Assembly: GCF_022045235.1 (NCBI RefSeq)
Contig: NW_027266272.1
Span: 25,544,001 to 25,608,000, forward strand
Direction of reading: 5' to 3'
Origin: Haliotis cracherodii
Taxonomy: Eukaryota
Length of the DNA: 64,000 nucleotides
Shown here: in pieces, positions 14,248-58,319 of the stretch
Layout: every line of letters begins with the position of its first letter
How positions within the stretch are numbered: position 1 is the stretch's first letter
The notes under the pieces: model-generated
Seen by the model: only the letters and a program-made list of their open reading frames with translations
Database searches by the model: none
Told to the model about the DNA's origin: nothing
Program-made: the position numbers and the translations under genes

Positions 14248-14313
14248 GACCCTCAAGTCGAAACCCCTGGCTATCGATTTCACGACTCAGTCTGTCTCAG
14301 TCCTACAGTAAAA

Positions 14314-21030: not shown

Positions 21031-21435
21031 CATATCATATCATATCATATCATATCATATCATATCATATCATATCATATCATATCGGCCCGTGAAGATT
21101 CCGGGGTAGAATAGGTCTTCAGCAACCCATGCTTGCCGTAAAAGGCGACTATGCTTGTCGTAAAAGGCGACTAACGGGATTGAGTGGTCAGGCTCGCTGA
21201 CTTGGTTGATACATGTCATCGATCCCAATTGCGTAGATCGAAGCTCATGATATCAATCACTGGATTGTCTGGTCAAGACTCGATTATTTACAGACCGCCG
21301 TCATATAGCTGGGATATTGCTGAGTGCGGCATTAAGCAACAAACCAACCAACCAACCAATCATATCATATCATATCATATCATATCATATCATATCATAT
21401 CATATCATATCATATCATATCATATCATATCATAT
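21031..21435. repeat. (CATAT)n microsatellite split by a retroposon insertion (21087-21360)
   Basis: Direct reading. Confidence 0.9.
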
Positions 21436-27774: not shown

Positions 27775-30420
27775 TTGGTATTACTTTCTGTGTTTAATAA
27801 TGTCTTCTTTGACTTCGTGTGTAAGCAGAATATTATCTGTTTAACCCAAACGTGGAAAAATGTTCAGATGACTTTAAGTTTGTTTTTTCCTGATTTCATT
27901 TCATTACAGTCAGTTCGACCTAAAGAGAAGAGGGCAGGTCGCTGCAGTGGAGGTGTCGCAGTATATGTTAGTGGTAAACTTTCATCGTATTTTTCAAGGA
28001 TACATGACGAATGGGTTGACTGTGTTTTTCTTGTATCCAGTGATGTATCCTGACACTGATACAAATATATATCAAATACAGCCCATGCAAGTCTACATTA
28101 CTGCAGTATCTGAAAATGAAGAGAGTCACTGGGCTCCCTTTTGTTATATTTTTATTAAGATAACTGAACAACTGTTTTTTCTGCACGATATGTTCATTTC
28201 AGACACTAGATGTTAGTCTACTGAGGGCATTGAAATTTTAGAAACTTTTCTTGCAGTGCTCATAGACGAAATCCCGGAAAATGACTTCATCTTGTGTGGT
28301 AACTTTAATAGTAGAACTCGAACCGAATTCGATTATATTGGTTTTGATGCAGTTGATCATCTACCAATGGATGATATTGTGTATGAACAGAATGACAGCC
28401 CTGAAGAGCGAAAGAACAAGGACCAAGTAGTTAGAGACCAAGTATTAGAGCAACATGTGTTAGCTCACCATGTTATATGTGTGTGTCAGCATCCATTTAC
28501 AAGTATGTAGAGGTCTTTAAAGGTATAAGTCGCACTGAGTCTGGCCATCTTCCCATATTTGCTTCTTTCTCATCATTGTTTAATGTAGTATACACTCTAG
28601 AACAGCCTAGGTGAGGCCAGGGGTAGATATACATGGAACGCGGATAAGAGTGGAGACTATATGAATAATTTTGAAAGTGAATTAGTGCAAGAAATGTTAA
28701 ATTAATTTATTACCTGTGTGGAAATTGATGTTGATAAAGCCGCAGAGAAGTTACAGCATATAATGCAATACTGTGGAAGGAATATGAAAGTAAAGTTGTC
28801 CAAGTATATAGGCTTAAAGAAACAATCAGAATGGTTTGATGAAGAGTGTGAACACTTGAAGAGAGAAAAGTATAAACTCTTGAATACATTCAGAAAGGTT
28901 TCTTCTCCGGAAAACTATAACTTATACAAGAACATTAGAAACAAATGTAAATCTTTATGTAAACAAAAACAGACTAATTTTAAGCAGAGCATTAGTGAAT
29001 GCTGCGAATGATAGTAACTGTACAACATTTTGGAGACTTGTGTAACGGTATATCACCTCAAGCTCGCAGGACTCTGGCATCGCACCTGCAACTTGGGTAG
29101 ATTAGATCGTGTGATTTTATCGAACAAGATGTGGTAAACACTCTTCATCATTTAAAGTATGGAAAATCACCTGGTGATGATGGACACCCACCAGAATTGT
29201 ACAAATCTGTTGAAAATGTATTAACTCCATATCTTGTCATTTTGTTTAATGCAGTGTTGTCCAGTGGACATTACCCAAAATTATGGTCAACGGGAATAAT
29301 AATGCCACTGCATAAAAAAAGGTAGTAAAAGTGATCCTAATAACTTACGTGGTATATCACTTCTCAATATAATGGGTAAAATGTTTTCTTATATTTTGAG
29401 GCATAATTTGTGAATATCAAGGGGGGTCTAAGAAAGATCATACCACTATTGATAACATTTTCAATTTACAAGCTATTATACAAAAGTATATCACTCGCAA
29501 AAAGGAAAAGTATATTGCGCTTTTATTGATTTTAGAAAAAAACCCATTTGATATGGTTAATAGGAGTAAGTTAATGTGTTATTTATTGCAAAATGGTATT
29601 CATGGCAAGTTTTTATGTATTATCCAGAGTATGTATAATCATGTTAAAGCAACTGTAACATACGATTATGGCAAGAAAATTACTGAGTATTTTGATAGTT
29701 CATGTGGGTTAAGACAAGGTTGTACTCTTAGTCCAGTACTGTTTTCTTTATTAATCAACGAATTAGTTATATGTTTGGAAAGTAAATTCCAGGATGGTGT
29801 TTTTATCTCAGAGGAAATGTTAAATATAATTTCCCTATTGTTTGCCGACCATTTAATACTTGTTGCAAACAGTGTATTAAAATTACAAAAACGTCTTGAT
29901 GAATTACATTTATACTCTTATAAATGGGGTATGGATATTAATACTGAGAAAAGTAAAATTATTGTGTTTAAAATGGGAGCACCCTTGTCAAAAAATGAGA
30001 AATGGTATTATAACGGTGAACGGATGAAAACAGTTAATTCCTATAAATATTTGGGACTTAATTTCATTCCCAAATTAATTTGGACTAAGGCCTGTAAAAC
30101 TTTATGCGAGCAAGCAAACAAGGCACTTTGATCAGTTAAATCATTGATACGACGTTATGACATTTCGGTTACGGAAGTATTCTTTATATTTGATAAAAAA
30201 ATTGTACCAATATTACTGTATGATGCTGAGATTTGGGGATACCAAAAATGGAATACGATTGAAATTGTTCACCGCAAATTTTGTAAAATTGCAAATACTG
30301 TAGCCTATGGTGAATGTGGCAGGTATCAACTTCATACTTTTTATCATGTAAAATACATAAAAATATTGGTCTAAGAATTTGAATATGAGCCCAAACAGAT
30401 ACCCAAACCAGTGTTATAAG
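27775..30420 (+). mobile_element. Decayed non-LTR retrotransposon ORF2 (APE endonuclease + RT), RTE-X/CR1-like
   Basis: Fragments ICLTQTW, GRCSGGVAVYV, ILCGNFNSRT, GKSPGDDG, GLRQGCTLSPVLF, LLFADHLIL, YKYLG, ILLYDAEIWG, AYGECGRY. Many stops and frameshifts. MITE inserted at ~28045-28220. Clade assignment is tentative. Confidence 0.85.
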
Positions 30421-31929: not shown

Positions 31930-32479
31930 CCAGATGATTGTCCCAATTAAGCCTTGAGGTTATGTTAATGTAGGCTCACTCTATTTGTACCCATCCTTAC
32001 AACATACCTATAGTTAAGTGGCCGACCCCATTTGTTTGCTAATGAATTCACAAGGCAGCACTTTCTTTACACTAACATATAGTCCCTGAAATAAAGTTTT
32101 TGTATACGTTTGAATAAAAATAATAAAATACCCGTCGAGCATGAAGGTCGTTTTCTTATGAAATCACATTAATAACTTGTTCTTATTATTTATATTATTT
32201 AGAAAATATTAATCTGAAGAGCTAAATAGGATGAGTATAGGCTAGAGAAGGGGAAGAGTGGAATGAAGATCAAATATGTATTAAATATACCTAATGTGAC
32301 CTGTAAGAGAGATTACACTTTCTTATGTAAGCCGCCTTTTTTCTATCTGATCCATATTTTCAATATATCAATGATTTCGGTTATTTCATTGTACACCTGA
32401 GGACCAATTATTTTTTTCAAGCATTTTCAGTAATGGAATATTTCTTTCTAGCACCCTCACGAGTTATCATTATCATTAG

Positions 32480-33740
32480 GCTGTATGGATATAATGAAGA
32501 TACCTACCTATTTGATAACATGCTGTATGAATATAATGAAGATATCTTCCTATTTGATAACATGCTGTACGAATATAATGAAGATATCTACCTATTTGAT
32601 AACATGCTGTATGAATATAATGAAGATATCCACCTATATGATAACATGATGTACGAATATAATGAAGATATCTACCTATTTGATAACATGCTGTATGAAT
32701 ATAATGAAGATATCCACCTATATGATAACATGCTGTACGAATATAATGAAGATATCTACCTATTTGATAACATGCTGTATGAATATAATGAAGATATCCA
32801 CCTATATGATAACATGATGTACGAATATAATGAAGATATCTACCAATTTGATAACATGTTGTATGGATATAATGAAGATATCTACCTATTTAGTAAGATG
32901 CTGTATGAATATAATGAAGATATCTACCTATATGATAACATGCTGTATGAATATAATGAAGATATCTACCTATATGATAACATGTTGTATGGATATAATG
33001 AAGATATCTACCTATTTGATAACATGCTGTATGAGTATAATGAAGACATCTACCTATATGATAACATGATGTATGAATATAATGAAGATATCTACCTATT
33101 TGATAACATGCTTTTTGAATATAATGAAGATATCTACCTTTATGGTAACATGCTGTATGGATAAAATGAAGATATCAATCTCATTAAAATCAGATCTTAG
33201 TTCTCGCTGCCGCTAAACAAAGATCTGAGGACATCCCATTACGGGTCACGTCAGAACGACCTTTCGCGAACCTTGACCGACCACTGAAATGACTAACAAG
33301 AAGTCTGTATGTTGTATGGATATAATGAAGATATCCACCTAAATGATAACATGTTGTATGGGTATAATGAAGATATCTACCTATATGATAACATGTTGTA
33401 TGGATATAATGAAGATATCCACCTAGATGATAACATGTTGTATGGGTATAATGAAGATACCTACCTATATGGTAACATGTTGTATGGATATAATGAAGAT
33501 ATCCACCTAAATGATAACATGCTGTATGGATATAATGAAGATACCTACCTATATGATAACATGTTGTATGGATATAATGAAGATATCTACCTATATGGTA
33601 ACATGTTGTATGGATATAATGAAGATACCTACCTATATGATAACATGCTGTATGGGTATAATGAAGATATCTACCTATATGATAACATGCTGTATGGATA
33701 TAATGAAGATATCTACCTATATGGTAACATGCTGTATCTG
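32480..33740. repeat. 42-bp minisatellite, subarray A
   Basis: Unit atctacctatatgataacatgctgtatggatataatgaagat. Interrupted by a MITE fragment at 33176-33305. Confidence 0.95.
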
Positions 33741-33742
33741 TA

Positions 33743-35860
33743 ATGCCTACCTGTATTGCAACGTGTTGTATGGATAGAAGGACAATGCCTACCTGTATTG
33801 TAACGTGGTGTATGGAGAGAAGGACAATACCTACCTGTATTGTAACGTGGTGTATGGAGAGAACGACAATGCCTACCTATATTGTAATGTGTTGTATGGA
33901 CAGAAGGAATATACCTACCTGTATTGTAACATGTTGTAGGGAGAGAAGGAATATGCCTACCTGTATTGTAACGTGGTGTATGGACAGAAGGAATATACTT
34001 ACCTGTATTGTAACGTGGTGTATGGACAGAAGGAATATACCTCCCTGTATTGTAACGTGGTGTATGGAGAGAAGGAATATACCTACCTGTATTGTAACGT
34101 GGTGTATGGACAGAAGGAATATACCTACCTGTATTGTAACATGGTGTATGGACAGAAGGAATATACCTACCTGTATTGTAACGTGTTGTAGGGAGAGAAG
34201 GAATATACCTACTTGTATTGTAACGTGGTGTATGGACAGAAGGAATATACCTACCTGTATTGTAACGTGGTGTATGGACAGAAGGAATATACCTCCCTGT
34301 ATTGTAACGTGGTGTATGGAGAGAAGGAATATACCTACCTGTATTGTAACGTGGTGTATGGACAGAAGGAATATACCTACCTGTATTGTAACATGGTGTA
34401 TGGACAGAAGGAATATACCTACCTGTATTGTAACGTGTTGTAGGGAGAGAAGGAATATACCTACCTGTATTTTAACGTGTTGTAGGGAGAGAAGGAATAT
34501 ACCTACCTGTATCGTAACGTGGTGTATGGAGAGAAGGAATATACCTACCTGTATTGTAACGTGGTGTATAGATAGAAGGACAATGCCTACCTGTATTTTA
34601 ACGTGGTGTATGGAGGGAAGGAATATACCTACCTGTATTTTAACGTGTTGTATAGATAGAAGGACAATGCCTACCTGTATTGTAACGTGGTGTATGGACA
34701 GAAGGAATATACCTACCTGTATTGTAACGTGTTGTATAGATAGAAGGACAATGCCTACCTGTATTTTAACGTGGTGTATGGAGAGAAGGACAATGCCTAC
34801 CTGTATTGTAACGTGGTGTATGGACAGAAGGAATATACCTACCTGTATTGTAACGTGGTGTATGGAGAGAAGGAATATACATACCTGTATTGTAACGTGT
34901 TGTATAGATAGAAGGACAATGCCTACCTGTATTTTAACGTGGTGTATGGAGGGAAGGAATATACCTACCTGTATTGTAACGTGGTGTATGGAGAGAAGGA
35001 CAATGCCTACCTGTATTGTAACGTGGTGTATGGACAGAAGGAATATACCTAGCTGTATTGTATCGTGGTGTATGGAGAGAAGGACAATGCCTACCTGTAT
35101 TGTAACGTGGTGTATGGAGAAAAGGACAATGTCTACCTGTATTGTAACGTGGTGTATGGAGGGAAGGAATATACCTACCTGTATTGTAACGTGGTGTATG
35201 GAGAGAAGGACAATGCCTCCCTGTATTTTAACGTGGTGTATGGAGGGAGGGAATATACCTACCTGTATTGTAACGTGGTGTATACATAGAAGGACAATGC
35301 CTCCCTGTATTGTAACGTGGTGTATGGAGAGAAGGAATATACCTACCTGTATTGTAACGTGGTGTATAGACAGAAGGAATATACCTACCTGTATTGTAAC
35401 GTGGTGTATGGAGAGAAGGACAATGCCTACCTGTATTGTAACGTGGTGTATGGAGAAAAGGACAATGCCTACTTGTATTGTAACGTGGTGTATGGAGAAA
35501 AGGACAATGCCTACCTGTATTGTAACGTGGTGTATGGACAGAAGGAATATACCTACCTGTATTGTAACGTGGTGTATGGAGAGAAGGACAATGCCCCCCG
35601 TATTGTAACGTGTTGTATGGACAGAAGGACAATGCCTCCCTGTATTGTAACGTGTTGTATGGACAGAAGGAATAAACCTACCTGTATTGTAACGTGGTGT
35701 ATGGAGAGAAGGAATATACCTACTTGTATTGTAACGTGTTGTATAGATAGAAGGACAATGCCTACCTGTATTTTAACGTGGTGTATGGAGGGAAGGAATA
35801 TACCTACTTGTATTGTAACGTGTTGTGTGGATACAAGGACACTACCTACCTATATGGAAA
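33743..35860. repeat. 42-bp minisatellite, subarray B (~50 units)
   Basis: Unit acctacctgtattgtaacgtggtgtatggacagaaggaatat. Confidence 0.95.
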
Positions 35861-36242
35861 CAGCTTATATTTTTGTACCTGGGTGTTTCGTAATTTCCTG
35901 TTCGAAGAGGCTATCAAATTCTTTCATGTTTCGTTTGTAAATGGCGAAATTAAAACGGGTTGTACAAAGCCGTCTTTAAACTATCATTAACTAATAGCAC
36001 TTTAAGTATATAATTTTCATTACCGCGTAATTCAATTAGAGTATTCCTCCATCATGTTCCATACAATTTCGTATTAGCAAACAAATAAGTTTGTGCAACG
36101 CAGAAAGTTTCAACTTCAGACCCCTGTATTTTATCAACGTATTAGCGCATATTATTAGGCATGTGTGGATTATTAAATGGTAGATAAATGGTACTTCAAA
36201 ACCCCCATTAATGTAATGACCCGTTATGGTGTTATTGAAAGT

Positions 36243-36324
<82 letters not shown>

Positions 36325-37016
36325 CCAAGTAACAAAATCCCATGTTTTGGGATGATACCAAAGTTGGGTAACGCTGCTTTAAAAAGTATTTCAGTTATAA
36401 CACTGAGTATAATCCCATCATAGTTACTGAAAGTGAAGTATTGTTCAAGGTCATTACAAATAATGAGTGAGTGCGTCGGGTTTAACGCGGCTTTTAACAC
36501 TAGTCCAGTTATATCACGGAGTGTCAGCTTAATGTGGGAGGAAAGCCCGAAGTGATGCAGGTGTCAGACGTTTACCACTTCGGTGAAATCCACGAGCACG
36601 GGTATGGTGCTGACAAACCTAGAAACATAATCGGGGCGAACTTGAGTTCGAACACACGATCGTAGTTTTCTGGCGTGCACAAGGAACGCAACTCTGCACA
36701 TAGAATGGCACCGTTTTTGACGAATGGCCACTCGTTGGGACAACAAGAAACACTGTATTCAGGGATAATATATTTACTGACAAAACCATAAAGTCATACA
36801 CATCAGTGCAAATGTTTATCAAACATAATAATGCACTTAGTCTTCAGCATTACAACATAACTACCAACGCATTATTGGCTATAAATAGTTTTACAGAAGA
36901 GGAAACCATAAATAAATTTAAAAAATTAAACGTTTTATGGTATCAATAAATAAAATATATTTGAAGGGATGACATTTTTAAATTTAAGGGACTGTTTGAG
37001 ACTGTAAGAGAACATT

Positions 37017-38092: not shown

Positions 38093-39140
38093 CCAGCTGA
38101 TTGTTGCACTACACCCTTAAGGCGACTGTCGTAACTTGTCCCACTGAGTATATTCTGTGTTCAACGAAGCGTGTACCATCAAACGCCATCTCAAATATGG
38201 AAAAACTACTATGTTAATATATTTTCTTAGGCTCTCGTGAAATAATAATATTACTTTTATCAAATCAGAACGCGACAGGGACCTTAAAAGAAAGACGTGT
38301 GTTAAGAAAAAACAACGTAAAAGAGTATTATGTATGAGATACCTGAAACCAAATTGTTAAAAAAGGGAAAAGAAAGAAAATGCCAATCGACTGCTCATTA
38401 GTGGTAACTTAATAGAGGAGAATGTCCGAGTAACTCATTATAATTATGGGCCTGTGAATATCCGGGGTAGAATAGGTCTTCAGCAACCCATGCTTGAGAT
38501 AAGGGCAACTATACTTGGTGTAATGGGGTGACTAACGGGATCGGGTGGTCAGACTCGCTGACTTTGTTGATGCATGTCATCGTATTCCAATTGCGTGGAT
38601 CGATGCTCATGATGTCAATCATTGGATTATCCGGTCCAAACTCGATTATTTGCAGAGCGCCGTCTGATAGCTGGAATATTGCTGAGTGCAGCGTTAAACA
38701 GCAAAGAAACAAACATTATTATCATGGAATGGAGAGTTACGAGGATATTCCCTTATAAAACACATCCCTGATTTCAGACTTTGAGAAAAGATTCCTCTTG
38801 TGGAATATATTAAAATATTAAACCAGAATTTTGGTAGTTTGTGTATTTATACTGTGTGAGTCACCCTTTCGTGCTGCACGAGAAATGTGTTCTCTGACGC
38901 TGTTTCACGTGCGTCAAGCTTCGTCGCAAGCTAACCTTTACCATGCATTTTGCACGGCTCTTTAAAATCACATGGGGCCCTAAACCAGTGTTTTATCAAT
39001 TGCATACCCATTTTGAATGAGTGTAGACGGGTATCATAAGAAATATAGAGCCCAGAACAACAATATCTATATATTTTTCGGATTTTTAGTTTTTCTCGGC
39101 AAAGTTTTTGTTTAATTGTTTCGACATGATTTTCGGTAAA

Positions 39141-40510: not shown

Positions 40511-40607
40511 TATGTAACGGCAATATTTCCGCCCGTAACCCCTGCTTTGAATTTCGCCTGGGTAAGGACATCCTTACCCGAATCCGAAAACCAACCGAAA
40601 ACCAACC

Positions 40608-40677
40608 CCATCCAGAACCAAAACCCCATCCAGATCCAGATCCAGATCCAGAACTAGAACCAGATCCAGAACCAGAT

Positions 40678-40712
<35 letters not shown>

Positions 40713-40730
40713 TCAAGATCCAAATCAGAT

Positions 40731-40761
<31 letters not shown>

Positions 40762-40957
40762 CAGAACCAGATTCAGATCAGATCCAGATCCAGATCAAGA
40801 TCAAGATCCAGAACCAGGACAGATCCAGAACCAGAACCAGATCCAGATCAAGATCCAGAACCAGGACAGATCCAGAACCAGAACCAGAACCAGATTCAGA
40901 ACCAGAACCAGAACTAGATCCAGATCCAGATCCAGATCCAGAACCAGAACAAGAACC
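40608..40957. repeat. Compound hexanucleotide microsatellite (CCAGAT/CCAGAA/CCAGAG)n
   Basis: Direct reading. Confidence 0.95.
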
Positions 40958-41249
40958 ATACATATGTTTTAATACTTCAAGTCAGGGCTTATGATTTAAA
41001 ACAAATTCGAAGCACGTGTTACAGACGGAAGTATTTGCTATATAAAATGTTGTATCATTGACAAAAATGTGTCGATTCCCGAAAATTTATGTATAGTTTA
41101 AACAATAGAATGACGTCACACATGTGTTTGAAAAGTCGTTCGTTGGCATAGCGGACAAATAGAGAGAAACTTTCGATATGTATTAATGTGCAATGTTTCT
41201 CACGGATACTGATGATATGAGGATCTATTCTTAATTTTAAGATCTGGAT

Positions 41250-41437: not shown

Positions 41438-43259
41438 GATCTGGATAGATACCAATATCTACCAGTAAGGAACAGTTTTACCAAAGCTACAATTTCCTTA
41501 TTCAGTAAGATCCTTTTTAACATTTTCTTTTTTCCTTCATGCGTGAAGAAGTAGTGAGTGAGTGAGTGAGTGAGTTGGGTTTAACGCCGCTTTTATCAGT
41601 ATTCCAGTTATATCACGGCGTGTCAGCTTAATGTGGGAGGAAAGTCCCAAGTGATGCAGGTCTTAGACGTTTACCACTTCGGTGAAACCCACAGTGGTTT
41701 CTGGCGTGCCCAAGGGACGCAACTCTGCACAGCGAATCGCGGCGCCTTAGACGACCGGCCCCCCCCTTAGACCCCCTCCCCGTGAAGAAGTAATGCAAGG
41801 GATGCTCGCCCTTTTCGAGGGCGCCTGGTGTCATCACTGGTTTTCGGAACCCTTGAAAATCCGGATTAGAATAGGTCTTCTGCAGCCCATGCTTGTCTTA
41901 AAAGGCGCTTACGCCTGTCGTAAGTGGAGACTAACGGGATCGGGTGGTCAGGCCCTTTGACTTTGTTGATGCATGTCATCGTATTCCAATTGCGATGATA
42001 GATCCTTGTTTTAGCGCCGTAATACCGTTTAGCGCCGCCAGTGTAACAACAAGAAACATCTTTTAACGTCTTTTGGTATGACGCGGCCATGGATCGAACC
42101 CCGACCTTCCACTCTCCTGGCAGGCGCTCCACCACTTGACCACATTGGCGGTCAAAAGCGTATAAACTAAGGATAGTATGAATATTTGATTAATATGGTC
42201 TGGTATGCGTGGAAGCTGTGATCTCACTCCTTGTCAACGATTCTTTCAGCCGGAACTTTGTTAATCCTGAAGATTTCCCAGGAAACGGTGCCGTCCAGAT
42301 TAACAAGGTGCCGCTGTGTGCCAAAAGGTCAAGACTCGCCAAAGAGAAACTCAAGCATACATATTTCATCTGCAGCTTTTGTTACAGACTTTAGTAACAT
42401 CTTAGGGGCGGTGCGGTAGCCTAGTGGTTTAAGCGTTCGCTCGTCACGCCGAAGACCCAGGTTCGATTCCCGACATGGGTACAATGTGTGAAGCCCATCT
42501 CTGGTGTCCCCCGACGTGATATTGCTGAAGTATTGCTAAAAGTGGCGTAAAACCATACTCACTCACTCACTCACTCACAAGCAACATCTTATAACGATCA
42601 TCAGTGCCCATTCAACCGTGGTCAATGGCTTCCGTCCTGTTTTAGTTAAATGGTACAGAAGACTTTAGAATATATTTGATTACATATTATTCTTGGAATG
42701 GAACATCGTTCGCATTGTGCACCAATTATGGGAGTGCGTGAGTATGGTTTTACGCCGCTTTTAGCAATATTCCAGCAATATACGTCGGGGGACTGCAGAA
42801 ATGAGCTTCACACATTGTACCCATGTCAGGAATCAAACCCGGGTCTTCGGCGTGACGAACGAACGCATTAACCGCTAGGCTACCCGACTGCCCCGCACCA
42901 AATATGGACATATATACCACGTGACTGAAGGATGAGAACCAACATATATAAAGAGAGATGCGTTTATTAAGAAAACAGTTGCGTACACACAATGATTATG
43001 AGATTATGAACAGCATTGCCGTTATATGATGGCGTGTCCGCTTGACATGGGAGGAAAGTACAATGGGATGCAGGTCCTACATTTATATCACTTTGCTCAA
43101 GCCCGTGAACACAAGTATAATAATGAGGGTGAATCTGGGATTCGAACTCAAGAGCACCGGATTCTGGGACGACTAAGTTAGGCAACTCTGCATAGCGAAT
43201 TACGGAGCCTTATACGGCTGGACCACCCGTTCCTAACATGTAATGGCATTTAAGCATTT

Positions 43260-45149: not shown

Positions 45150-47130
45150 CAACAAGAACAGTCGATATTAAGGACTTTTTACACAGAATTAATGCTCCAA
45201 TCTCAAATCCTCAACAATATAAACATCTAGAACGGACAATATGTGTGAAAGAATTATCCAAGGCAATAAAAGACATTAGAAAAGAATGTCTGACATCATT
45301 GTCATTCCAGGTTAATCTTTGGGGAGATTTTTGAAAAGATTGTTGGACATGGGTTCACAAATACATGACTAAATCCTTCAATAACAACAACTTACATATT
45401 ACAATGGAGGTGAGTGAGTGAATATGGTTTTACGCCGTTTTTAGCAATACTCCAGCAATATCCCGTCGGGGGACACCAGAAATGTGCTGCAGACATTGTA
45501 CCTATGTGGGTAATAGAAACCGGGTCTTTGGCGTGACGATCGAACGCTTTAACCACTTGACTAACCCACCGCCCAATATATCTATTACATTTAACAGGGA
45601 TGTGATCACTAGTATTAAAAAGGCAGACACAGATCAATATTGCAAACTTGGCGACTCAATACTCTCAGTATAAGATCGTCAGTGCTTGTTTTACTAGAAG
45701 ACTTAAAATTGTTTTACGCCGTCATATAACTGGAATATTGGTGAGTGCGGCGTTAAACAACAAACAAACATACAAAACAAAACAGGTTTCATGATCCAGG
45801 ATTTATTATTGACTTGATACTGCAATGTTGATGAAATATTTCTGACAGCAGCATTAAACATACTCATATATTTACAGGCTGCAACAGGGGTTATCTAGAG
45901 CGGTTCAGAGGTTCTTATTCAGTCTGCAGCAAATGTCCATCAAAATTCTCAAATTGGAATTTCCCAATTCCTGTTGATATAGTTATGTCTAATATTATGA
46001 CTTTGTAGAGGTTACGATCTCACTAAAATCAGATCTTAGTTCTCGCTACCGCCGAACAAAGATCTGAGGACATCCCATTACGGGTCACGTCAGAACGACC
46101 TTGCGCGAACTTTGACCGACCAATTGAATGACCAATCAGAAGGCAGCTTTCTCGTGCTTTACGGCACTAATTTCAAATTGGCGACTTCACTTTGAAACAT
46201 ATTTTGACAAATTCCGATTAAAAATTTGAAACCTGAACCAAAAACATTCTGGAATGGCTAATAGATGGTCTAGATTGTAAGGAATCAGTCGTTAAACCCA
46301 TAACTATCGTTCGGTATACCCCATGTTAAAGTTTTCGAGGTTGTATGATTAGAAATCACATTCCGACTGTCACTTTCATAATGTGGTAAGCGACGCACTG
46401 ATTGGTTGGATAAAAGGTCAGTCTGACGTGACCCCTAATGGGATGTCTTCAGATCTTTGTTTAGCGGTAGCGAGAAGTAAGGTCTGATTTTAATGAGATT
46501 GTAGAGGTTACCGTATTTCACTGATAACAGGCCCAATAAAGAAGAGGGGGTTTTAATATATAGTTTTACATTAGCACACTGAATGCAATGTTTAAATACC
46601 TCAGAATTTTAGAAAATAAAGGTTGATCAAATTAAGATTGTTTTAGATATTTTAGTTTATGGTAGATATTCCAGGTAGATGTATTAGTGATGCCATTTGA
46701 AATGTATGTGATTTTACCTTTTAGACAAAAGAGAACGATAAGCCGGGTATGTCATTACTTATAGACTTTGAAAGGGCGTTCGACTTAATCTAAAAAGATA
46801 CAGATAAAAGTTCTCGAAGGGTTAGGATTGGATATTATATACAATTCAAATATTGGTCACATTGATATTGCATCCCAAATGCGTAGGCCGATGCTCATGA
46901 TGTCAATCAGTGGATTGTCCTATCCAGATTCGATTATTTACAGATCGTCGTCATATAGCTGGAATAAGGTTGAGTGCGGTGTTAAACAACAAACGAACAA
47001 ACAAACGTATAATGATTGACAACGCAACTTCTTGTATTACACAAAACAGCCACTTCCCATCTTTTTGGTGAACTGATGGGGTCGCCAGCAGGTGGTCCAG
47101 TTTCGCCTTATGTATTATTCATTTATTTTG
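45150..47130 (+). mobile_element. Highly decayed L1/Tx1-like RT remnant interrupted by SINEs and a MITE
   Basis: LERTICVKELSKAIK at ~45230, KPGMSLLIDFERAFD-like at ~46740-46785, GRQ..PVSPY-like at ~47080-47112. Confidence 0.4.
46015..46501. mobile_element. Long-TIR MITE with 9-bp TSD (Mutator-like or Academ-like)
   Basis: ~80-bp TIRs (caatctcattaaaatcagatcttagttctcgctacc...) and TSD tagaggtta. Truncated copy at 33176-33305; 63-bp mini copy at 55189-55251. Confidence 0.85.
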
Positions 47131-47131
47131 G

Positions 47132-47855
47132 TAGAGGTAGATAACACTGACGATCAGAGGTAGATGATACTGACGACGTAGGAGTACATAACACTGATGA
47201 TGTAGAGGTAGATAACACTGACGATGTAGGAGTAGATAACTAGGACGATGCATTGGTAGATAGCACTGACGATGTAGGAGTAGATAACACTGACGATGGA
47301 GTGGTAGATAACACTGACGATGTAGGAGTAGATAACTAGGACGATGCAGTGGTAGATAACACTGACGATGCATAGGAAGATAACACTGACGATGTAGGAG
47401 TAGATAACACTGACGATGTAGGAGTAGATAACACTGACGATGTAGGTGTAGATAACACTGACGATGGAGTGATAGATAACACTGACGATGTAGGTGTAGA
47501 TAACACTGACGATGCATAGGAAGATAACACTGACGATGTAGGAGTAGATAACACCGGCGATAATGTGGTAGATGACACTGACGATGCGGTGGTAAATGAC
47601 ACTGACGATGAAGTGGTAGATGACACTGAAGATGAAGTGGTAGATGACACTGAAGATGAAGTGGTAGATGACACTGACGATGAAGTGGTAGGTGACACTG
47701 GCGATGAAGTGGTAGATAACACTGACGATGAAGTGGTAGGTGACACTGAGGATGCAGTGGTACATGACACTGACGATGCAGTGGTAGATGACACTGACGA
47801 TGCAGTGGTAGATAACACTGACGATGAATTGGTAGATGACACCGATGATGCAGGG
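47132..47855. repeat. 24-bp minisatellite (~30 units)
   Basis: Unit gtagataacactgacgatgtagga, drifting to gtagatgacactgacgatgaagtg. Confidence 0.95.
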
Positions 47856-47968
47856 GTAAAGTAAAGGAGTTTCTATGAAGTCATTCAATCCTGCTTCTTT
47901 ATTAGTATTGCTCACTCTTCCCTATAGATGACAGGTTATTATCATCGTGAGAGGTTCTCTACAAAATC

Positions 47969-48130: not shown

Positions 48131-49447
48131 CTCTACAAAATCAGTTCTTTATGCAAGTGCAATTAAATGTCATAATGATAACGAAATTAAATCAATGATG
48201 TACATTGATTACGATAATGAACATGACATTATCCGCATGGGGAAACATTACACTTCAAAAGGTTGACGTCTGGGGGAGGGGGGGGGTGGGGGGATGGTCC
48301 AGGTCCAATGTGGATCGGGTGGTTACAGTCTGCCCCCGAGTGGAATGTTTATCATTATACTTAGATGACGTATGTCATTGTTCTTGCTACCTGTCATTGG
48401 TCCTCCTCACTCGAAATTTCAGGCCGCCGTGACATAGCTGGAATATTCTGTCTGTGGCGTAAAACAACATGAGTAATGAGTAACTGAGTCAGTATTGTTT
48501 TACGCCGCTTTTAGCAATATTCCACCAGAAATGGGTTTCATACATTGTACTCATGTGGGAAAAAGGAACCCCGGGCTTTGGCTTGAACGAACGCTTTAAC
48601 CACTAGGATATCCTACTCAATTCTGAAAGAGAGTTGTTTTGGACGTGAAATAGACCATGCCAAAGCATACAGCATACTATTTATCCTAACCAGTAACTAA
48701 TATAATATACCAATAACGTCGTACTAGACAAACGGTATCGTATAAGGAAAAAATAATAAAAAGAACAATTATTTCAAATGTTCTTTACAACCGATACCAC
48801 CATAGTACAGCGACATTATTAAAAATATTTCCCAGTTGCAGATTATGTGTATCAGTGAGCATTAAAAAGAGGTATGTTCGTTGATAAATTTAAACGGTGT
48901 TCTATAACCGAGTTTACGCTTAGTATTCTCATCTGGGAGTCTAAGAATATACGTTTCTACTAATCACACACATTTTGACACTTTCAAACAATAAATGGAA
49001 ACTGACAATATGTCAGTTGATAATAAATGTCGACAATAAAAGTAGGTCAAGTTACATCACAGTCCACTTGTTTTCTTTTTAAGCAGAGTAGTGAATAAAT
49101 CCAATAAGCGAATCCCCTCCCCGAAAACCCAATGTTGTTCTCTTATATCAGGTTTTGGCTTCCTTTCTTTTGCGAATTCTAGTAATATATTTTCAACCTC
49201 AACAGACAGTTGAAAAATCTCCAATTCGGACGCCACCTAACATCACACCCTATTACGATAAGGAAAATGTTTATGGTCCTTGTTTCGTTTGTTACCACGG
49301 ACGCTCCTTGAACTGGGAAGAAGAACGACGACCCCCCGGGCGATAGGCTGCTGGGGGACTTTCCCACACCTCCATCTGGACAGACATATAACCCGAGACC
49401 CACCGGTGTCCGGTCACAAGCACTTGGTCAGTCAGTCTTGAGTCACC

Positions 49448-50956
49448 ATGGTCCATCAAATCGTCGTCGCTCTGTGTGTGGTGATAGGCCTCGCCTCTCA
49501 ACAGGTATTCGCTCAGTGGTCGGGCATGGATCAGAGTCAGGGTCAAGGTCTTGGTCAAGGTCAGATGGGAGAATTAGGCACAAGTGCGTGGGGCACAAAC
49601 CAAGGTCAAGGTTTCCGCCAAGGACAAGATCAGTTAGGAGGATGGAACAGCGGTGCGTGGAACATGGGCCAGGGTCAAGGATTTGGTCAAGGTCTGGGTC
49701 AAGGCCAAAGTCAGTTTGGAGGATGGGGCGGTGCTTTGGGCATGGGACAAGGAGGAGGATGGGGACAAGCGTCACCTGCTGGTTTAGGAATGGGAGGCAT
49801 GGGACAAGGAGGAGGATGGGGACAAGCGTCACCTGCTGGTTTAGGAATGGGAGGCATGTTCCAACAGGAACCTAACCAGTATCAGACCTGCATCGCCAAG
49901 AACTCAAATGGGGACGAGATGAGAGTCACCTTCAGCAGCAGCAACAACAACCCGTGGTTTGGAAACCAATTTGGCAACGCCTTGCGTCTCACTGCTCGCA
50001 TCTCCTCCAACCAAGCTGCAACTCTCCAAGGTCAATTCCAGTTGGTCGTCACTGAATTCTCCCGCACTGAGGAGGTGTGTTCCAGCCGTGCTCTCGGCGA
50101 CATCCTGACCGACCGTACCTGGTGGAGCCAGTCCCGTACTCCCCGCGGCATCGTGGGCACCCCCGTCACCATCAACCAGGGACAGACCGCCACCTCCTCT
50201 GAGACCGTGGAGAACCTGGCCTTCGAGGAGCTGACCGGCCGTGGACTGGCTCTGTGTCCCTCTCACCAGATCTTTGGGTCTACCTGCAGGGACGTCATCC
50301 CTCTGTGCTGCAAGATCGGCTTCGACAGTCAGCCTGCCACCACACCATTCACCGCCCAGAACCAGCTCTTCGGCCAGGGACTTCTCGGCATGCAGAACCC
50401 AGGTAGCAACAACGGTTTGGGAGGCGGTTTCGGCCAGAGGATGCCCGGAGGGATGGGAGGTGTCTTTAATACCGACGTTGGAAGGACCGCAACAATCGAC
50501 GGTAACATGAACACTGCAGGTGGGCTAGGTTTGAACCAAGGACCTCAAGCAGGTATGAACCAGAGGCTCCCCTCCGGAATGAACGGCGGTATGAACCAGG
50601 GACTCCCCTCCGGAATGAACGGCGGTATGAACCAGGGACTCCCCTCCGGAATGAACGGCGGTATGAACCAGGGACTCCCATCCGGAATGAACGGCGGTAT
50701 GAACCAGGGACTCCCATCCGGAATGAACGGCGGTATGAACCAGGGACTCCCCACCGGAATGAACGGCGGTATGAACCAGGGACTCCCCTCCGGCATGAAC
50801 GGCGGTATGAACCAGGGACTCCCCTCCGGAATGAACGGCGGTATGAACCAGGGACTCCCCTCCGGAATGAACGGCGGTATGAACCAGGGACTCCCCTCCG
50901 GAATGAACGGCGGTATGAACCAGGGACCCCCCTCCGGGTTGAACGGCGGTTTCTAG
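49448..50956 (+). CDS. Paralogue 7, long divergent form (502 aa) with expanded N-arm and 11 x 12-aa C-terminal repeat
   Basis: ACCATGG start and signal peptide MVHQIVVALCVVIGLASQQVFA|Q. Same six-Cys domain. TATAA at 49387, AATAAA at 51040. Confidence 0.93.
   Translation: MVHQIVVALCVVIGLASQQVFAQWSGMDQSQGQGLGQGQMGELGTSAWGTNQGQGFRQGQDQLGGWNSGAWNMGQGQGFGQGLGQGQSQFGGWGGALGMGQGGGWGQASPAGLGMGGMGQGGGWGQASPAGLGMGGMFQQEPNQYQTCIAKNSNGDEMRVTFSSSNNNPWFGNQFGNALRLTARISSNQAATLQGQFQLVVTEFSRTEEVCSSRALGDILTDRTWWSQSRTPRGIVGTPVTINQGQTATSSETVENLAFEELTGRGLALCPSHQIFGSTCRDVIPLCCKIGFDSQPATTPFTAQNQLFGQGLLGMQNPGSNNGLGGGFGQRMPGGMGGVFNTDVGRTATIDGNMNTAGGLGLNQGPQAGMNQRLPSGMNGGMNQGLPSGMNGGMNQGLPSGMNGGMNQGLPSGMNGGMNQGLPSGMNGGMNQGLPTGMNGGMNQGLPSGMNGGMNQGLPSGMNGGMNQGLPSGMNGGMNQGLPSGMNGGMNQGPPSGLNGGF
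50552..50947 (+). repeat. Coding tandem repeat, 11 x 36 bp (GMNQGLPSGMNG)
   Basis: 396 bp = 11 x 36 bp. Unit ggtatgaaccagggactcccctccggaatgaacggc. Confidence 0.95.
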
Positions 50957-52787
50957 ATTCGGCAATCTAACGGTCATGTTAGACTTTTGATGAAAGTCTA
51001 CATATCAAATTGATAGCATTTAATCTATCGTTTTGTGGGAATAAAGCTAAATACTATCATTACATTGGTTTTGCTTTTTTCTTATTGTCAGAAATCTGTC
51101 AGCTGAGTAACGGCTAAGGGACGCAACTCTGCATACCGACTAGAGGCGCCTGGGGCGACTACATGTCAGTATATATATTTACTTGAGATGCATTGGTTAA
51201 GAGAAAGTGTTGATCACATTATCTGTAACTAGGCCTAAATAGAGTTTATCATATAAAGGTTCGTGTTCTCGATGTGAGAGTGAGTGAGTGAGTTGGGTTT
51301 AACGCCGCTTTACGGTATTCCAGTTATATCAGCGTGTCAGCTTAATGTGAGAGGAAAGCACGAAGTGATGCAGGCCTCATACGTTTACCACTTCGGTGAA
51401 ACCCACGAGCACGAGTATGGTGCTGACAAACCTAGAAACATAATCGGAGTCAACCGGGATTCGAACCCATAATCATAGGTTTCTGGCGTGCCCAAGGGAC
51501 GCAACTCTGCACAACGAATTGCGGCGCCTTAGACGACTTGGCTCCCCGTACGGCGCCTATCGATGTGAGAAACCAATCAAACTTGGTATCACGATCACGA
51601 ACACATAAATATGAAAATGAGGTCACCTTGTCGGAACTACATTTTTAGTAAGCACTGTACATAGATGCAGGGTTTACTTGCTAAAAGCCTATTATCATAA
51701 TTTGGGCGGTTCACTCAGTTTGGTTTTAGCAATATTCCAGCAATATCACCTGAAATGGGCTTCACACATTGTACCCATGTCGGGAATCGAACCCGGGTCT
51801 TCGGCGTGACGATCGAACGCTTTTACCACTAGGCTACCGTTCGCTTAGGCTTTATATAACGTTGCTATAGTAAATAGCAATATGTCTTAAACTTTGATTT
51901 TTTTAAGAATAGCATGATATGATAAAGTGAGTATTTCCCTCGTATGCTTCCGTATCGTAAATATATGTAATATATTACCAATAAACAATATTTATTACCC
52001 TCGCCAAAGACTCGCATAATACAATATTTTTATTCCGACCATATAATATTTACTATACAAAACCACTCGACTAATAATATATATCATGTGTAAATAACAA
52101 CAAATATTTGCGCAGTCTTTGAGACTGTTTCATTGGCATGGGAACGGTACTTCCGAGACTACCCCATAAACGTCTTCTAGCCAGTTAACTCCCTTGCCTC
52201 GGGGATCTGATAGCCCAACAACTGCCATACTTCGAACAAGAGTTGTCAACACATGACGCACCTTTTAACGGTGATCAATTATCAATAACCATATCACTGA
52301 TAATAAATAATAACCACAGCTAGCCGGGTCTTATTAATTGACTGTCCGTAATATACGCTGAAATCGGCCCGCATCACTTAGAAGCACTGGAGGGCAATAC
52401 CGCCTGCCTTGGGCCAATATGACTGATCTTGGACCTACAACAAGGCCACTATTTGAACACCGATATTATAACAGAATAGTATTTGCACTACAATGACATG
52501 AATCACAATGCATCATCCATACATGGGTTGTTGTTTTTTGGTTTTTTGTTGTTGTTTAACGCCGCATTCAACAATATTCCAGCTATATGACGGCGGTTGG
52601 TAAATAATCGAGTCTGGACCAGACAATCCAGTGATTGACACCATGCCCATCGATCCACACAATTGGGATACGATGACATGCATGAACTAGGTCAACGAGC
52701 CTGTCCTCCCGGTCCCGTTAGTCGCCTCTTACGGCAAGCATGAGCTGAATGAAGTGTTATCCTAACCGTGATCAAACTGTCAACATA

Positions 52788-54246: not shown

Positions 54247-56453
54247 TACATTTAACCACATGCTAGCGTGTAGATGTTATATTTTGATTTCAAAGAACTT
54301 GTAACTTAAATGCAAAATTCGCCAATATTCATGCATGATATAGTTCCGACACATGACTGTTGTTTAGAGCACATACTATTTCATTGTCTTTTCACTCAAC
54401 TTGTCCGTTTCAGACAGATATCCGGTATCACCTACGGAATTAAGCAAATATAGTTTACTGTTAAGCCTACATTCTGCATCTTTACCTCTTTAGATCATCT
54501 TATATTTCTGATGCTGTCTGACTAGTTATGTAAAGCTTTGGCTGCTACATCGTGTTGTATAAAGTACTGTATAATCACCTAATGATATGGTCAGAATTAA
54601 TTCGTGTTGCGATGTGATGTGTCTGCAATAAACAAGCGAATAGTTACGCTCCGAATTTTGCGTGATCCGACATGTGGCCGTGTGAAATATCTCTAACTGC
54701 TGTATGTGGAATTGGGTTTTCGTTTGATTTGGTTTGTTGTTTAACGCCGCACTCAGCAATATTCCAGCTATATGACGGTGGTCTGTAAAATAATCGAATC
54801 TGGACCAGACAATCCAGTGATTGATATCATGAGCAACGATCAAAGTAATTGGGATCGATGACATGCATCAACCAAGTCAGCGAACTTGACCACCCGATCC
54901 CGTTAGTCGCCTCTTACGACAAGCGTAGTCGCCTTTTACGGCAAGCATGGGTTGCTGAAGACCTATTCTACCCCGGCTCTTCACGGGTCGTATGTGTAAT
55001 TGGTGTACAGTGCTATAGGAATGAGATTCCACTGACCGTATTTGTATTAAGTATTTTTTAAATGTATTTTTTTTTAATGTACATGTATTTTTAACTTTTT
55101 ATTTAATAAATATTGTGCATATATGATCACTAGTGTATCGTTATTGACCGGATATAGCAATATACTGTTTTGTGTTCTATCATTGTATCAATCTCAGTGA
55201 AAATCAGATCCCAATTCTCGCGAGAACAAAGATCTGGTTTAAATGAGATTGTCACTGTATGCAATTTATGACAATAAAAGTAATCTTCTTCTCCTTCTTT
55301 CACTCAAAGTCGTCATGGGTAAGGGACGGTGGGGTAGCCTAGCGGTTAAAGCGTTCGCTCGTCACGCCGAAGTCCGACTTTGATTCCTCACATGGGTACA
55401 ATGTGTGAAGCCCATTTCTGGTGTCCCCCGCCGTGATACTGCTGGAATATTGCTAAAGCGGTGTAAAACCACACTCACTCACTTCACGGATCAGTGACTT
55501 ATAGAGAAAATATAGTCTTTACGCCCTGAATAGTAACAGTCAAAGAGCCAGACATCACACCTTGTCTACGTGAGTTATTCAATCTTACCTCGCTTTATCT
55601 ACAGGCCATGGCTTAAGGCGATAGTGGGAGACTCCCTTTAATCTAATAGTGTCCGGTCGTCTCCGCCAAGTAATCTCCTCAAATGTCCCTCAGGCCAAAT
55701 CAAAGTAATTAATTTCAATTAATTATGTGTAACTAAACCTGTCATTTTTACGACATGCCTTTCATCCCTGATACCATTATTGATAAAAGTAAGATCGATG
55801 GATTCATTTGACAAATCTGTATTATAAGCAACGTTTGTCCGGCTAAATAATTATGTGTGTTTTTTCTTATGAAAGGAAATACATATTGCAAACAAAATGT
55901 CCCCATATCAATACAAATATAGAAATTAGTATGTCATCTCGTGCACCCCAAAATTGTATTTATTGTGTGTTAAATAAAGCGTGCAGGCGAGTGATGGATT
56001 TGCGTCGCTTTAGCAATAATCTTGCAACATGACGGCGGGAACACGAACAATGGTTTTCCCACGTTGTACCCTTGTGGGGACTCGAACCCGGTTTTATATA
56101 TTTATATAGCGCCTCCAACTATTAGCTGTTCAGTGGGCGTGGAAGGATCTACAGTTAAAAAGAAATAGTCGAGTTTATAGCAATGTTGAGCATTGTTAAT
56201 TATTCTGAAAATCACAATTATTATTATAATCTACAATCCATATATCTTCAAAAGTTAACACTAAAATAACAAATTGTGCCCATGCATGCTCCTGTTGTTT
56301 TGTAGAGGACCTTAGAATGCTGGCTCTGGAATTAATTGCTAATTTCTGCTATCATTGATCGTCCGATACGTATGGAATCCTAAAACGGACATCGTCACGT
56401 TGTCGCATTTCGCCCTGACAAAAATACAAGCAAAGCGCGACAATGCGACAACG

Positions 56454-56760
56454 TACCCGTGAAGATCCGGGTTAGAATAGGTCTTCAGCAACCCAACCTT
56501 GCCGTAAAAGGCGACTATGCTTGTCGTAAAAGGCGACTATGCTTGTCGTAAAAGGCGACTATGCTTGTCGTAAAAGGCGACTAACGGGATCGGGAAGTCA
56601 GGCTTGCTGTCTTTGTTGATGCATGTCATCGTATCCTAATTTTGTGGATAGATGCTCGTGATGTTAATCACCGGATAGTCTGGTCCAGACTCGATTATTT
56701 ACAGACCGCCGTCATATAGCTGGAATATTGCTGAGTACGGCGTTAAACAACAAACAAACA
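56454..56760 (+). mobile_element. Retroposon lacking a tRNA head, with structured 5' end and (AAAC)n tail (representative copy)
   Basis: TSD acaatgcgacaacg. Other copies: 339-777, 8213-8453(-, TSD acatgtcatattg), 21087-21360, 22695-22887, 26255-26458(-), 38448-38714, 41849-41995, 52540-52770(-), 54720-54989(-), plus 3' fragments. Confidence 0.88.
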
Positions 56761-58319
56761 ATGCGACAACGCGACAATGTCCTTTCCAGGATTCCATAGA
56801 TACGTCGTACCATATATAGGACGATGTGAACCTCAGACATATACAAAATATACAAGATGGTTGCTTCAGACCATATAGGGGCAGTCAGGCAGTCAGACCA
56901 TATACATGTAGTACAGCTGAATCATTGAGTTTAATTAACTAAACCATAAAAAAGCTAAACCATATTTTGTTGAGGAATGTGCTGGTAGATAAATGTGTTG
57001 TTTAACACTTCTGTCAATATTTGAGTGAGGGAGCATTGTCTTACGCCGGGGGGTACTAGAAATGGACTTCACACATTGTATGTGGGGAATCGAACCCGGG
57101 CCATCTGCATGGCGAGCGAACGCTTTAACCACAAGGCTACCGCACCCGTCATTATTTGAAGTTGTTTAAGAATCAAATCATGTAAATAGCACATGATGCA
57201 CAAAATATATGGCAAGTTTCTCAAGTTTCTCATTTAGAAAATGAAAAAATATAAAAAATAAGTTACAGATAAAAGAGACAGCAAAAATACACACATTGCC
57301 ATAAAAACAAACCATGAAGTATTATTGCAATAAATAAAACATATTTTGGTCAAGAATAATATACCTTCGCAGGGAAATAGAATGAGTATGCAAATAATTA
57401 GGATTAATGTAGTTCTAAAATCAAAGAAGGGCCGAACTGTGTGTTCATTTAATACAACAAAGATCTCATGCAAGGATCAAATGCTATATGTACAACATAG
57501 TTATAAGGCCTTATATTGATTTATTTGCTTCCATTCATTGTTTGTGTGTGAACGAGCGATACGCCCTATGTATCGTCGAGTGAATGAATGTATGCCAAAT
57601 CGTGCCGGTATTGCGGGCTACTGATCTAACAACGTCAACTAAGAAATGTCCCATCTTACCCCTTACGTTCTTTAAGATCATAACATCTTGATTGTTGCTG
57701 AAAAGTAGCTGGGTTGTAGTAATTCAGCCATGTCATAACACTTTGTAACAAGGGGATGTTTAGTGTTATGAATTTCTTCCTGAAGTCGATGAACATAACA
57801 GTATACCAGTCGGTGAAATAAGTTCAATTTTGTGGCTTTTCAACTTGAAAAATGGGCCTACCTTTAGAATACAGTACCACAAACTTTTTAAACACGTGAT
57901 CATACCCTATGACGTAATTTGTAGTATTTTGTTGCCAATCACACCGGCGAAACAATGCCCTGTGACGTCAGGGGTCATTGGGTGTGCATAAGCTCCTCCC
58001 AGTGATTTATCATCTCTACATGAAATGCCATTGAATACGCCAAGCAGTGTGGAGAGTTTTGAATATTTGATTACTAAATATAGCCTGCGGCGGCGCATTT
58101 TATAGCAAGCGCTAGTTTACGAAAGCACTTTTATTTTTTATATATTTTATATTTCGTTTTTCTCGTAATTGAAGTGGCTAAAATGGTTATAATTGGGAAC
58201 TAACATACATATCTATTTTTTTCGGTTCATTAATTTTCATTATTATGCACAAGAACGCAGTTTATTAGGGATATTATATTGGCGCTGAACACATCCAAAT
58301 ATCGCTAGTGTTAGGGTAG

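What the first reader, a model, noticed from the sequence alone, without database searches (positions are those of the whole stretch)
56454..56590. tRNA-less retroposon family starts with a compact, covarying multi-stem RNA with a loop-loop pseudoknot: candidate self-cleaving ribozyme or novel structured RNA
Seen: full-length copies (339, 8453-, 21087, 38448, 41849, 54989-, 56454) all begin within a few nt of CCCGTGAAG, next to the TSD where one is visible, and show no Pol III A/B boxes. The first ~70 nt fold as closing stem CCCGU/ACGGG enclosing three hairpins: GAAGAU-CC[GGGGUAGAAUA]GG-UCUUC, AGCA[ACCCA]UGCU, and UUGYC[GUAARA]GRCGA, followed by CUAA. The first loop (GGGGU, UGGGU or GGGUU in different copies) is complementary to the second loop (ACCCA/AACCC). 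One pair in hairpin 3 occurs as C-G, U-G and U-A across copies (compensatory change). Established: R2, RTE, Ingi and Penelope elements use HDV-like, twister or hammerhead ribozymes to define their 5' ends. By eye this fold lacks the hammerhead (CUGANGA/GAAA), twister (GUCCCAAGC) and HDV (L3 CC / P1.1 GG) cores. Inference: either an undescribed 5'-processing RNA motif or a LINE 5'UTR structure retained in a bipartite non-autonomous element.
Basis: partly seen in the sequence, partly recalled or inferred. Interest (0 to 1): 0.7.

Follow-up and report, generated by a model that had tools for sequence, protein, structure and literature searches.

The report
Knotted RNA shared by retrotransposons, viruses
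The front end of this jumping-gene family is a ~70-letter folded RNA that also follows the last gene of several invertebrate-type viruses and likely marks where an RNA begins by stalling the cell's 5'-to-3' decay enzyme rather than by cutting itself, which would be the first such element in animal retrotransposons.

Summary
The element is real: a ~250-nt, TSD-flanked, tRNA-less retroposon (at least 15,387 head matches in the genome) fitting the published Haliotis LP-SINE, whose head was proposed to be a promoter. Across 25 heads from diverse families, hairpins 1 and 2 covary strongly (154/175 and 85/100 pairs against 109 and 59 in swaps). The closing stem and loop-loop pseudoknot do no better than swaps. 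Loop 2 instead pairs with bases after ACUAA, and the 5' CCG likely pairs into loop 1. The same fold lies, in sense, behind the last ORF of five RNA-virus contigs and between genes of a DNA virus; Rfam has no match. In this genome an older LINE subfamily starts at the motif, while a younger one has an HDV-like ribozyme directly upstream; 82 of 96 LINE copies start at the ribozyme with the motif intact. That argues against self-cleavage and against a fixed internal promoter. Best reading (about 0.5, untested): an exoribonuclease-blocking RNA of a new fold that sets 5' ends. Main rival: a host-factor or translation element.

The parts
56440..56453 (+). 5' target-site duplication (14 bp); its partner is 56758-56771
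56454..56747 (+). LP-SINE-type retroposon copy, 294 nt to the end of the tail (250 nt in two-unit copies)
56457..56459 (+). S1 5' strand (CCG), predicted to pair with 56468-56470 (CGG) in loop 1, giving a 5'-terminal H-type pseudoknot
   Evidence: 73 of 75 pairs, but mostly invariant and the register partly chosen by pairing; inferred
56461..56486 (+). P1: 7-bp stem (56461-56467 with 56480-56486) whose loop carries CGG and the conserved AGAAU
   Evidence: 154 of 175 pairs; 5 of 5 counted pairs change on both sides
56487..56499 (+). P2 hairpin; loop CCC predicted to pair with 56586-56588 (second pseudoknot). The 3' strand is mutated in this copy
56496..56583 (+). four tandem 22-nt units, each with the near-invariant P3 hairpin and ACUA
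56585..56590 (+). 3' strand of the second pseudoknot (only 3 bp in this family, 4-6 bp in many others)
56712..56757 (+). LINE-like 3' tail and (CAAA)n; 18 of 21 nt shared with the tail of the motif-bearing LINE L371
56758..56771 (+). 3' target-site duplication
21087..21190 (+). head of another copy (two P3 units)
54885..54989 (-). head of another copy (two P3 units)
8377..8453 (-). head of a one-unit copy, 13-bp TSD
38449..38546 (+). head of a diverged copy
41848..41946 (+). head of a diverged copy that lacks the tail
336..598 (+). head split by an insertion of another short repeat (373-546, 12-bp TSD)

Best explanation
The SINE begins with a ~70-nt RNA module of three stems and likely two pseudoknots, shared with LINE 5' ends and viral 3' UTRs, which likely sets RNA 5' ends by stalling 5'-to-3' exoribonucleases (Xrn1/Xrn2) just upstream of its first base pair. 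Shown: the module, the covariation of P1 and P2, its places, and where copies start. Inferred: the promoter-less element is transcribed by read-through; decay of the host transcript runs 5' to 3' until it meets the knotted 5' domain; the protected RNA, starting 1-5 nt before the first pair, is copied by a LINE reverse transcriptase through the shared tail. Where an HDV-like ribozyme was added upstream, it cuts first and leaves a 5'-OH end that Xrn1 does not load on (recalled), so copies start at the ribozyme. In viruses the same block would leave a short stable 3'-UTR RNA, as flavivirus xrRNAs do.
For: Pairing is selected at RNA level: P1 154 of 175 pairs against 109 in swaps, P2 85 of 100 against 59, loop 2 with 3' tail 98 against 78 Watson-Crick pairs, 0 swaps reaching any of these; inside one LINE family a P1 pair switches A-U (33) to C-G (31) with 6 discordant of 70. 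A model built from 18 non-viral heads scores 7 viral loci (6 distinct viruses) at 38-70 bits and 0 of 80 loose-pattern control loci at E<=1. In 5 RNA-virus contigs the motif is sense, about 5-100 nt after the last stop and 27-119 nt from the contig end, once in tandem; tandem 3'-UTR copies and a pseudoknot that engages the 5' end are xrRNA traits (PMC8374639). Independent families start just before the first pair: 3 nt in this SINE, 2-3 nt in a metagenome family of 22 copies, 1 and 5 nt in two TSD-flanked LINE copies. With the ribozyme upstream, 82 of 96 LINE copies start at its G1, including 11 of the 12 with the canonical ACUAA; a cutter or fixed promoter in the motif would have removed the ribozyme. 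Only 8 pattern hits in 596 Gb of prokaryote assemblies, mostly host-associated or contig-end.
Against: No nuclease assay; no sense RNA ends seen (uninformative). The fold lacks the three-way junction of flavivirus xrRNAs, and the loops are more sequence-invariant than most xrRNAs (recalled), which fits a protein-binding site or catalytic core as well. The motif stays under pairing selection behind the ribozyme, where a block should be partly redundant. First bases are purine-biased (G at -2 in 42 of 62 heads; A/G in 16 of 22), as transcription starts or cap-derived G would be. The 5' pseudoknot rests mostly on invariant CC/GG. The second pseudoknot is 2-3 bp only in 4 of 6 viral copies and 3 bp in this SINE. 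P3 and AGAAU look invariant partly because my search patterns required them.
Confidence: 0.5

Rival explanations
1. The module binds a conserved host factor (translation-initiation factor, ribosome or RNA-stability protein). It would serve uncapped viral and LINE RNAs as a cap-independent translation or stability element, and let the SINE dock where LINE protein is made, as Alu does through SRP9/14. Bound protein could also block decay, so this can coexist with the best explanation.
For: Invariant loop letters across viruses and animals; retention under selection directly behind a ribozyme that yields uncapped RNA; the viruses have tombus-, toti- and tetra-like proteins, groups recalled to include uncapped RNAs with 3' translation enhancers.
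Against: Alone it does not explain why several families start 1-5 nt before the first pair; the SINE encodes nothing; the motif is about 480 nt from ORF1 in the LINE.
Confidence: 0.22
2. A new class of self-cleaving ribozyme that cuts just 5' of the fold.
For: Precise 5' ends; compact pseudoknotted fold with invariant core; an ACUAA strand between a hairpin and a pseudoknot strand recalls HDV J4/2; ribozymes head several LINE clades (PMC6765202, PMC5786205).
Against: 82 of 96 LINE copies keep upstream RNA across the motif's 5' edge; the letters at the would-be cut site are not conserved; constitutive cutting would sever viral ORFs from the 3' end in 5 contigs; HDV descriptor met by 1 of 26 heads, with a poor P1, against 20 of 30 controls.
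Confidence: 0.14
3. An internal Pol II promoter, as proposed for LP-SINEs in 2016, with the RNA structure incidental or a second function.
For: Position at element starts; purine first base; a very high copy number is easier with an own promoter; L1Tc Pr77 is both promoter and ribozyme (PMC4758252 section 10).
Against: Same letters and pairing kept in RNA viruses, which have no DNA stage; a fixed start at the motif would lose the upstream ribozyme, yet 82 of 96 LINE copies retain it.
Confidence: 0.1

Closest known systems
LP-SINEs Hdi_LP / Hmi_LP and the ~70-bp head shared with Nimb-17_LMi, I-3_DR and RTE-9_CPB (Matetovici et al. 2016, PMC4758252)
   Same: tRNA-less head of about 70 bp, TSDs, short tandem tail, length near 255 bp; the scallop 'Nimb-17 homology' alignment in the supplement shows the same motif by eye.
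   Different: The paper proposes a promoter; in what I read it gives no RNA structure, no viral occurrence and no ribozyme-plus-motif LINE. Its Fig. 3 alignment could not be seen, so identity with Hdi_LP is by description.
Viral exoribonuclease-resistant RNAs (flavivirus classes 1a, 1b, 2; Tombusviridae/Luteoviridae type; PMC8374639)
   Same: About 70 nt, pseudoknots, predicted pairing of the 5' end, start of 3' UTRs, tandem copies.
   Different: No closing three-way junction; different conserved letters; no Rfam match; found in retrotransposons. The review (2021) states xrRNAs had been characterised only in viruses. Resistance untested.
HDV-like ribozymes at LINE 5' ends (R2, RTE, L1Tc/ingi Pr77)
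   Same: Same place and apparently the same job (5'-end definition); swapped between LINE clades; an ACUAA strand after a hairpin.
   Different: No nested P1/P2/P3/P1.1 fold; element ends lie 1-5 nt before the first pair, not at G1 of P1; a true HDV-like ribozyme sits next to it in the LINE L371 and sets the end there.

Membership tests
LP-SINE (Matetovici 2016) | head of about 70 bp shared with a LINE 5' end | tested here: met
   same motif heads LINEs L371, L530, L546 in this genome and L313; scallop alignment in supplement
LP-SINE (Matetovici 2016) | no tRNA head; TSDs; 3' tandem repeats; about 255 bp | tested here: met
   (228-294 nt by unit number)
LP-SINE (Matetovici 2016) | sequence identity with the Hdi_LP consensus, including the AATATA hexamer | tested here: inconclusive
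   figure not held; this tail reads AATATT; head 9-mer absent from the text supplements
HDV-like ribozyme | nested double pseudoknot P1/P2/P3/L3/P1.1/P4 with J4/2 C | tested here: not met
   descriptor 1 of 26 heads against 20 of 30 control LINE ends (first version failed its control); Rfam hits only the upstream ribozyme
HDV-like ribozyme | self-cleavage 5' of G1 | not testable with these tools
   indirect: 82 of 96 LINE copies are uncut at the motif edge
hammerhead, twister, twister-sister, pistol, hatchet, hairpin ribozymes | Rfam model match or catalytic core letters | tested here: not met
   no match over the motif; hammerhead and twister cores 0 of 26
flavivirus xrRNA classes 1 and 2 | three-way junction closed by P1, with base triple | tested here: not met
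   no conserved closing stem; no Rfam match
xrRNA (functional class) | at least one pseudoknot | tested here: met
   loop 2 with 3' tail, 0 of 5000 swaps; 5' pseudoknot inferred
xrRNA (functional class) | ring of 15-16 nt around the 5' end | not testable with these tools
   needs a 3D structure
xrRNA (functional class) | halts Xrn1 at a defined site | not testable with these tools
   no assay; reads uninformative
tRNA-derived SINE (SINE2) | tRNA head with A and B boxes | tested here: not met

The most novel reading that the evidence does not exclude
A new class of exoribonuclease-resistant RNA, traded between RNA viruses, a large DNA virus and non-LTR retrotransposons of several clades, lets promoter-less LINEs and SINEs be carved out of host transcripts by RNA decay: a third route to a 5' end beside internal promoters and ribozymes, and the first xrRNA class native to animal genomes, at tens of thousands of copies.
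Probability: 0.45. Interest if true: 0.88.

Novelty: new variant of a known kind. Interest (0 to 1): 0.72.

Why it matters
The 2016 paper left open why a ~70-bp 5' segment is shared by unrelated LINEs and SINEs, and a 2021 review asked whether eukaryotic genomes carry xrRNAs. A defined fold, its presence in viral 3' UTRs, and a natural pair of LINE subfamilies with and without an upstream ribozyme make both questions testable with one short in vitro assay. Under any of the three RNA-level readings it is a structured RNA absent from Rfam 15 that links viruses and retrotransposons.

Tried and rejected
HDV reading with ACUAA as J4/2: rejected. My own idea that ACCAA in most LINE copies shows decay: dropped, because it forms a G-C pair in the alternative P3 register (82 of 96); the two P3 registers could not be told apart. 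A relaxed viral scan (120 loci, 80 tested with the model) gave noise and served as control; (20 loci) added no new virus. No match in the phage collection. Sequencing runs: no RNA holder listed; small-RNA reads of a related species gave 40 reads on the SINE and 147 reads, all antisense, on the LINE end, which say nothing on processing; contigs cannot show ends. The apparent excess of LINE starts at the motif edge (5 of 14, p=0.003) is not independent truncation: 4 of the 5 share the older P1 variant. The exact partner LINE of the SINE was not found; L371's tail is related, not identical; a second variant search (30 of 52 loci read) showed only SINE-type copies. Earlier-findings look-ups returned nothing. 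Ruminski 2011 was not held.

Full report
Observation. The window lies in a 1.18-Gb genome. The named copy runs 56454-56747 between 14-bp TSDs and ends in (CAAA)n. An exact 30-nt head pattern has 15,387 matches genome-wide, some in tandem arrays. Among 62 heads gathered from the window and own-genome loci, 51 had a tail and 23 a detectable TSD of 8 bp or more; 16 of the 23 have exactly two bases before CCCGT, most often GA. There is no tRNA or Rfam match over the head.

Known part. Matetovici et al. 2016 (PMC4758252; passages, section 10 whole, supplement 3 whole, supplement 4 part 1 of 5) describe LP-SINEs, including 255-bp Haliotis families, whose first ~70 bp are shared with Nimb-17_LMi, I-3_DR and RTE-9_CPB. 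They propose a promoter and mention the L1Tc ribozyme only as an analogy. Their scallop alignment shows the same motif by eye. Their Fig. 3 is not held, so filing this family as Hdi_LP-like rests on description.

Wider distribution. A pattern built from two conserved blocks found 18 loci in IMG/VR, of which 7 carry the whole fold; they represent 6 viruses, as L038 and L045 are nearly identical. Three have an RdRp domain (L464, L465, L467), two have RNA-virus-type capsid domains (L461, L462), and one is a 212,482-bp DNA-virus contig with an NAD-dependent ligase nearby (the size is recalled as that of invertebrate iridescent virus 6, not checked). In the five RNA-virus contigs the motif is on the coding strand, about 5-100 nt after the last stop and 27-119 nt from the contig end; L461 has a second, cut-off copy with its own P1 changes. 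In the DNA virus it lies between two same-strand genes. A metagenome scan returned 122 loci from 1 of 64 parts (about 10,000 estimated), mostly multi-copy repeat families, some with the motif directly before a tRNA-like head. Prokaryote assemblies gave 8 hits in 596 Gb; one is core-only, the rest lie on short contigs, contig ends or host-associated bins, and L313 runs into a LINE-type ORF1, so I read them as eukaryotic contamination (inference from one pattern). A model from 18 non-viral heads scored the 7 viral loci at 38-70 bits and none of 80 loose-pattern controls; the core letters were preselected by my patterns, the P1 and P2 pairing was not.

Structure. I chose 25-26 heads by hand, one to three per family, leaving out those without a clear 5' domain. 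With fixed offsets, P1 pairs in 154 of 175 cells (swap mean 109), P2 in 85 of 100 (59), and loop 2 pairs with the bases after ACUAA (98 against 78; examples CCUCCU/AGGAGG and CCUUCU/AGAAGG); no swap reached these (one search agrees: 65 cells changed on both sides against 20). Swaps ignore kinship, so these are not probabilities, but the changes recur across unrelated hosts and viruses. The 5' CCG is complementary to CGG at the start of loop 1 in 73 of 75 cells, which would make an H-type pseudoknot with a one-base first loop and a 7-bp second stem; two pairs are invariant and the third (15 G-C, 8 C-G) depends partly on register, so this is inferred. P3 is near-invariant and has two possible registers. 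Rfam gave nothing over the motif in window, viral, LINE or metagenome loci, and an HDV descriptor that finds 20 of 30 control LINE ends finds 1 of 26 heads.

The LINE in this genome. A variant search led to a LINE family with the motif in its 5' UTR. L371 is intact: 6.2 kb, TSD, ORF1 and an endonuclease-RT-RNase H ORF2. Its first 58 nt form an HDV-like ribozyme (Rfam E 0.004, below the gathering score; full descriptor parse), and the motif follows with no spacer. Of 107 pattern matches I read 98 loci, 96 distinct: 82 start at the ribozyme's G1, 2 inside it, 5 at the motif edge, 7 inside the motif. Four of the five edge copies share an older P1 variant; of 17 matches to that variant, 7 are tandem fragments, 1 has the ribozyme, 6 run into the LINE UTR with no ribozyme upstream and 3 are short. 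Two have TSDs placing the start 1 and 5 nt before the CCG. So one subfamily begins at the motif and another, better preserved and so likely younger, has a ribozyme stacked in front; P1 keeps covarying in both.

Mechanism. Any explanation must cover starts just before the first pair in several families, the shift of the start to G1 when a ribozyme is added, and RNA-level selection in viral 3' UTRs. A promoter fails the second and third; a self-cutter fails the second and sits badly with the third; a binding element covers the third and the retention behind the ribozyme but not the first. A block to 5'-to-3' exonucleases covers all three, given that 5'-OH ends are poor Xrn1 substrates (recalled), and matches xrRNA traits in PMC8374639 (passages and part 2 of 5). 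Against it: no assay, high loop conservation, purine-biased first bases, retention behind the ribozyme, and a weak second pseudoknot in 4 of 6 viruses. I give it 0.5, a host-factor element 0.22, a ribozyme 0.14, a promoter 0.1.

Novelty. The SINE family and the shared head are published. Ten full-text searches (listings only) found no paper on its RNA fold, its viral copies or an xrRNA in non-LTR retrotransposons; passages of PMC6765202 and PMC5786205 showed none either. Subscription papers, Repbase reports and bioRxiv supplements were not searchable, so prior description is not excluded. Verdict: a real, apparently undescribed structured RNA on a known SINE kind; new variant; interest 0.72.

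Noticed in passing
L371:9623-9680 (- strand); G000:C4 near 37792600: HDV-like ribozyme at the 5' end of an endonuclease-RT-RNase H (I-group-like) LINE family; 82 of 96 sampled copies start at its G1. I/Nimb is not among the six ribozyme-bearing clades listed in PMC5786205; the clade was not determined by tree.
   Followed up: partly
window 14248-15250+, 19069-20068-, 24852-25866-, 30855-31869-, 37019-37991-, 43499-44494-, 49442-50953+: Seven near-identical intronless ORFs for a ~330-500 aa protein with a signal-peptide-like start and Gly/Gln-rich N-terminus, five spaced about 6 kb apart; no Pfam match for the two tested.
   Followed up: partly
L371:9587-9617: 127 identical 31-nt small-RNA reads antisense to the motif's P1 region in a related species, piRNA-like.
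   Followed up: no
L245, L236, L192, L267: The motif stands directly upstream of a tRNA-like SINE head in metagenome contigs, like the scallop MESC SINEs.
   Followed up: no
G000:C1:5446238-5447436; L533-L536; L542-L544: Tandem arrays with 50-75 nt periods built from the 5' half of the motif.
   Followed up: no
window 373-546, 18199-18471, 36464-36727, 51325-51549: A second abundant short repeat family; one copy inserted into the head of the 339 element.
   Followed up: no
window 22157-22228+: tRNA-like segment (Rfam tRNA 31 bits, not called by ARAGORN), probably a SINE head.
   Followed up: no
window 29400-30128+: Reverse-transcriptase fragment (PF00078, E 1e-18).
   Followed up: no
window 32458-35900, 47059-47934, 50480-51022, 40566-40962: Minisatellite arrays of 42, 24, 36 and 12 bp.
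   Followed up: no
L308-L314: Prokaryote assemblies that contain this animal-type element, probably host DNA contamination; L313 is a LINE 5' end in a symbiont scaffold.
   Followed up: partly
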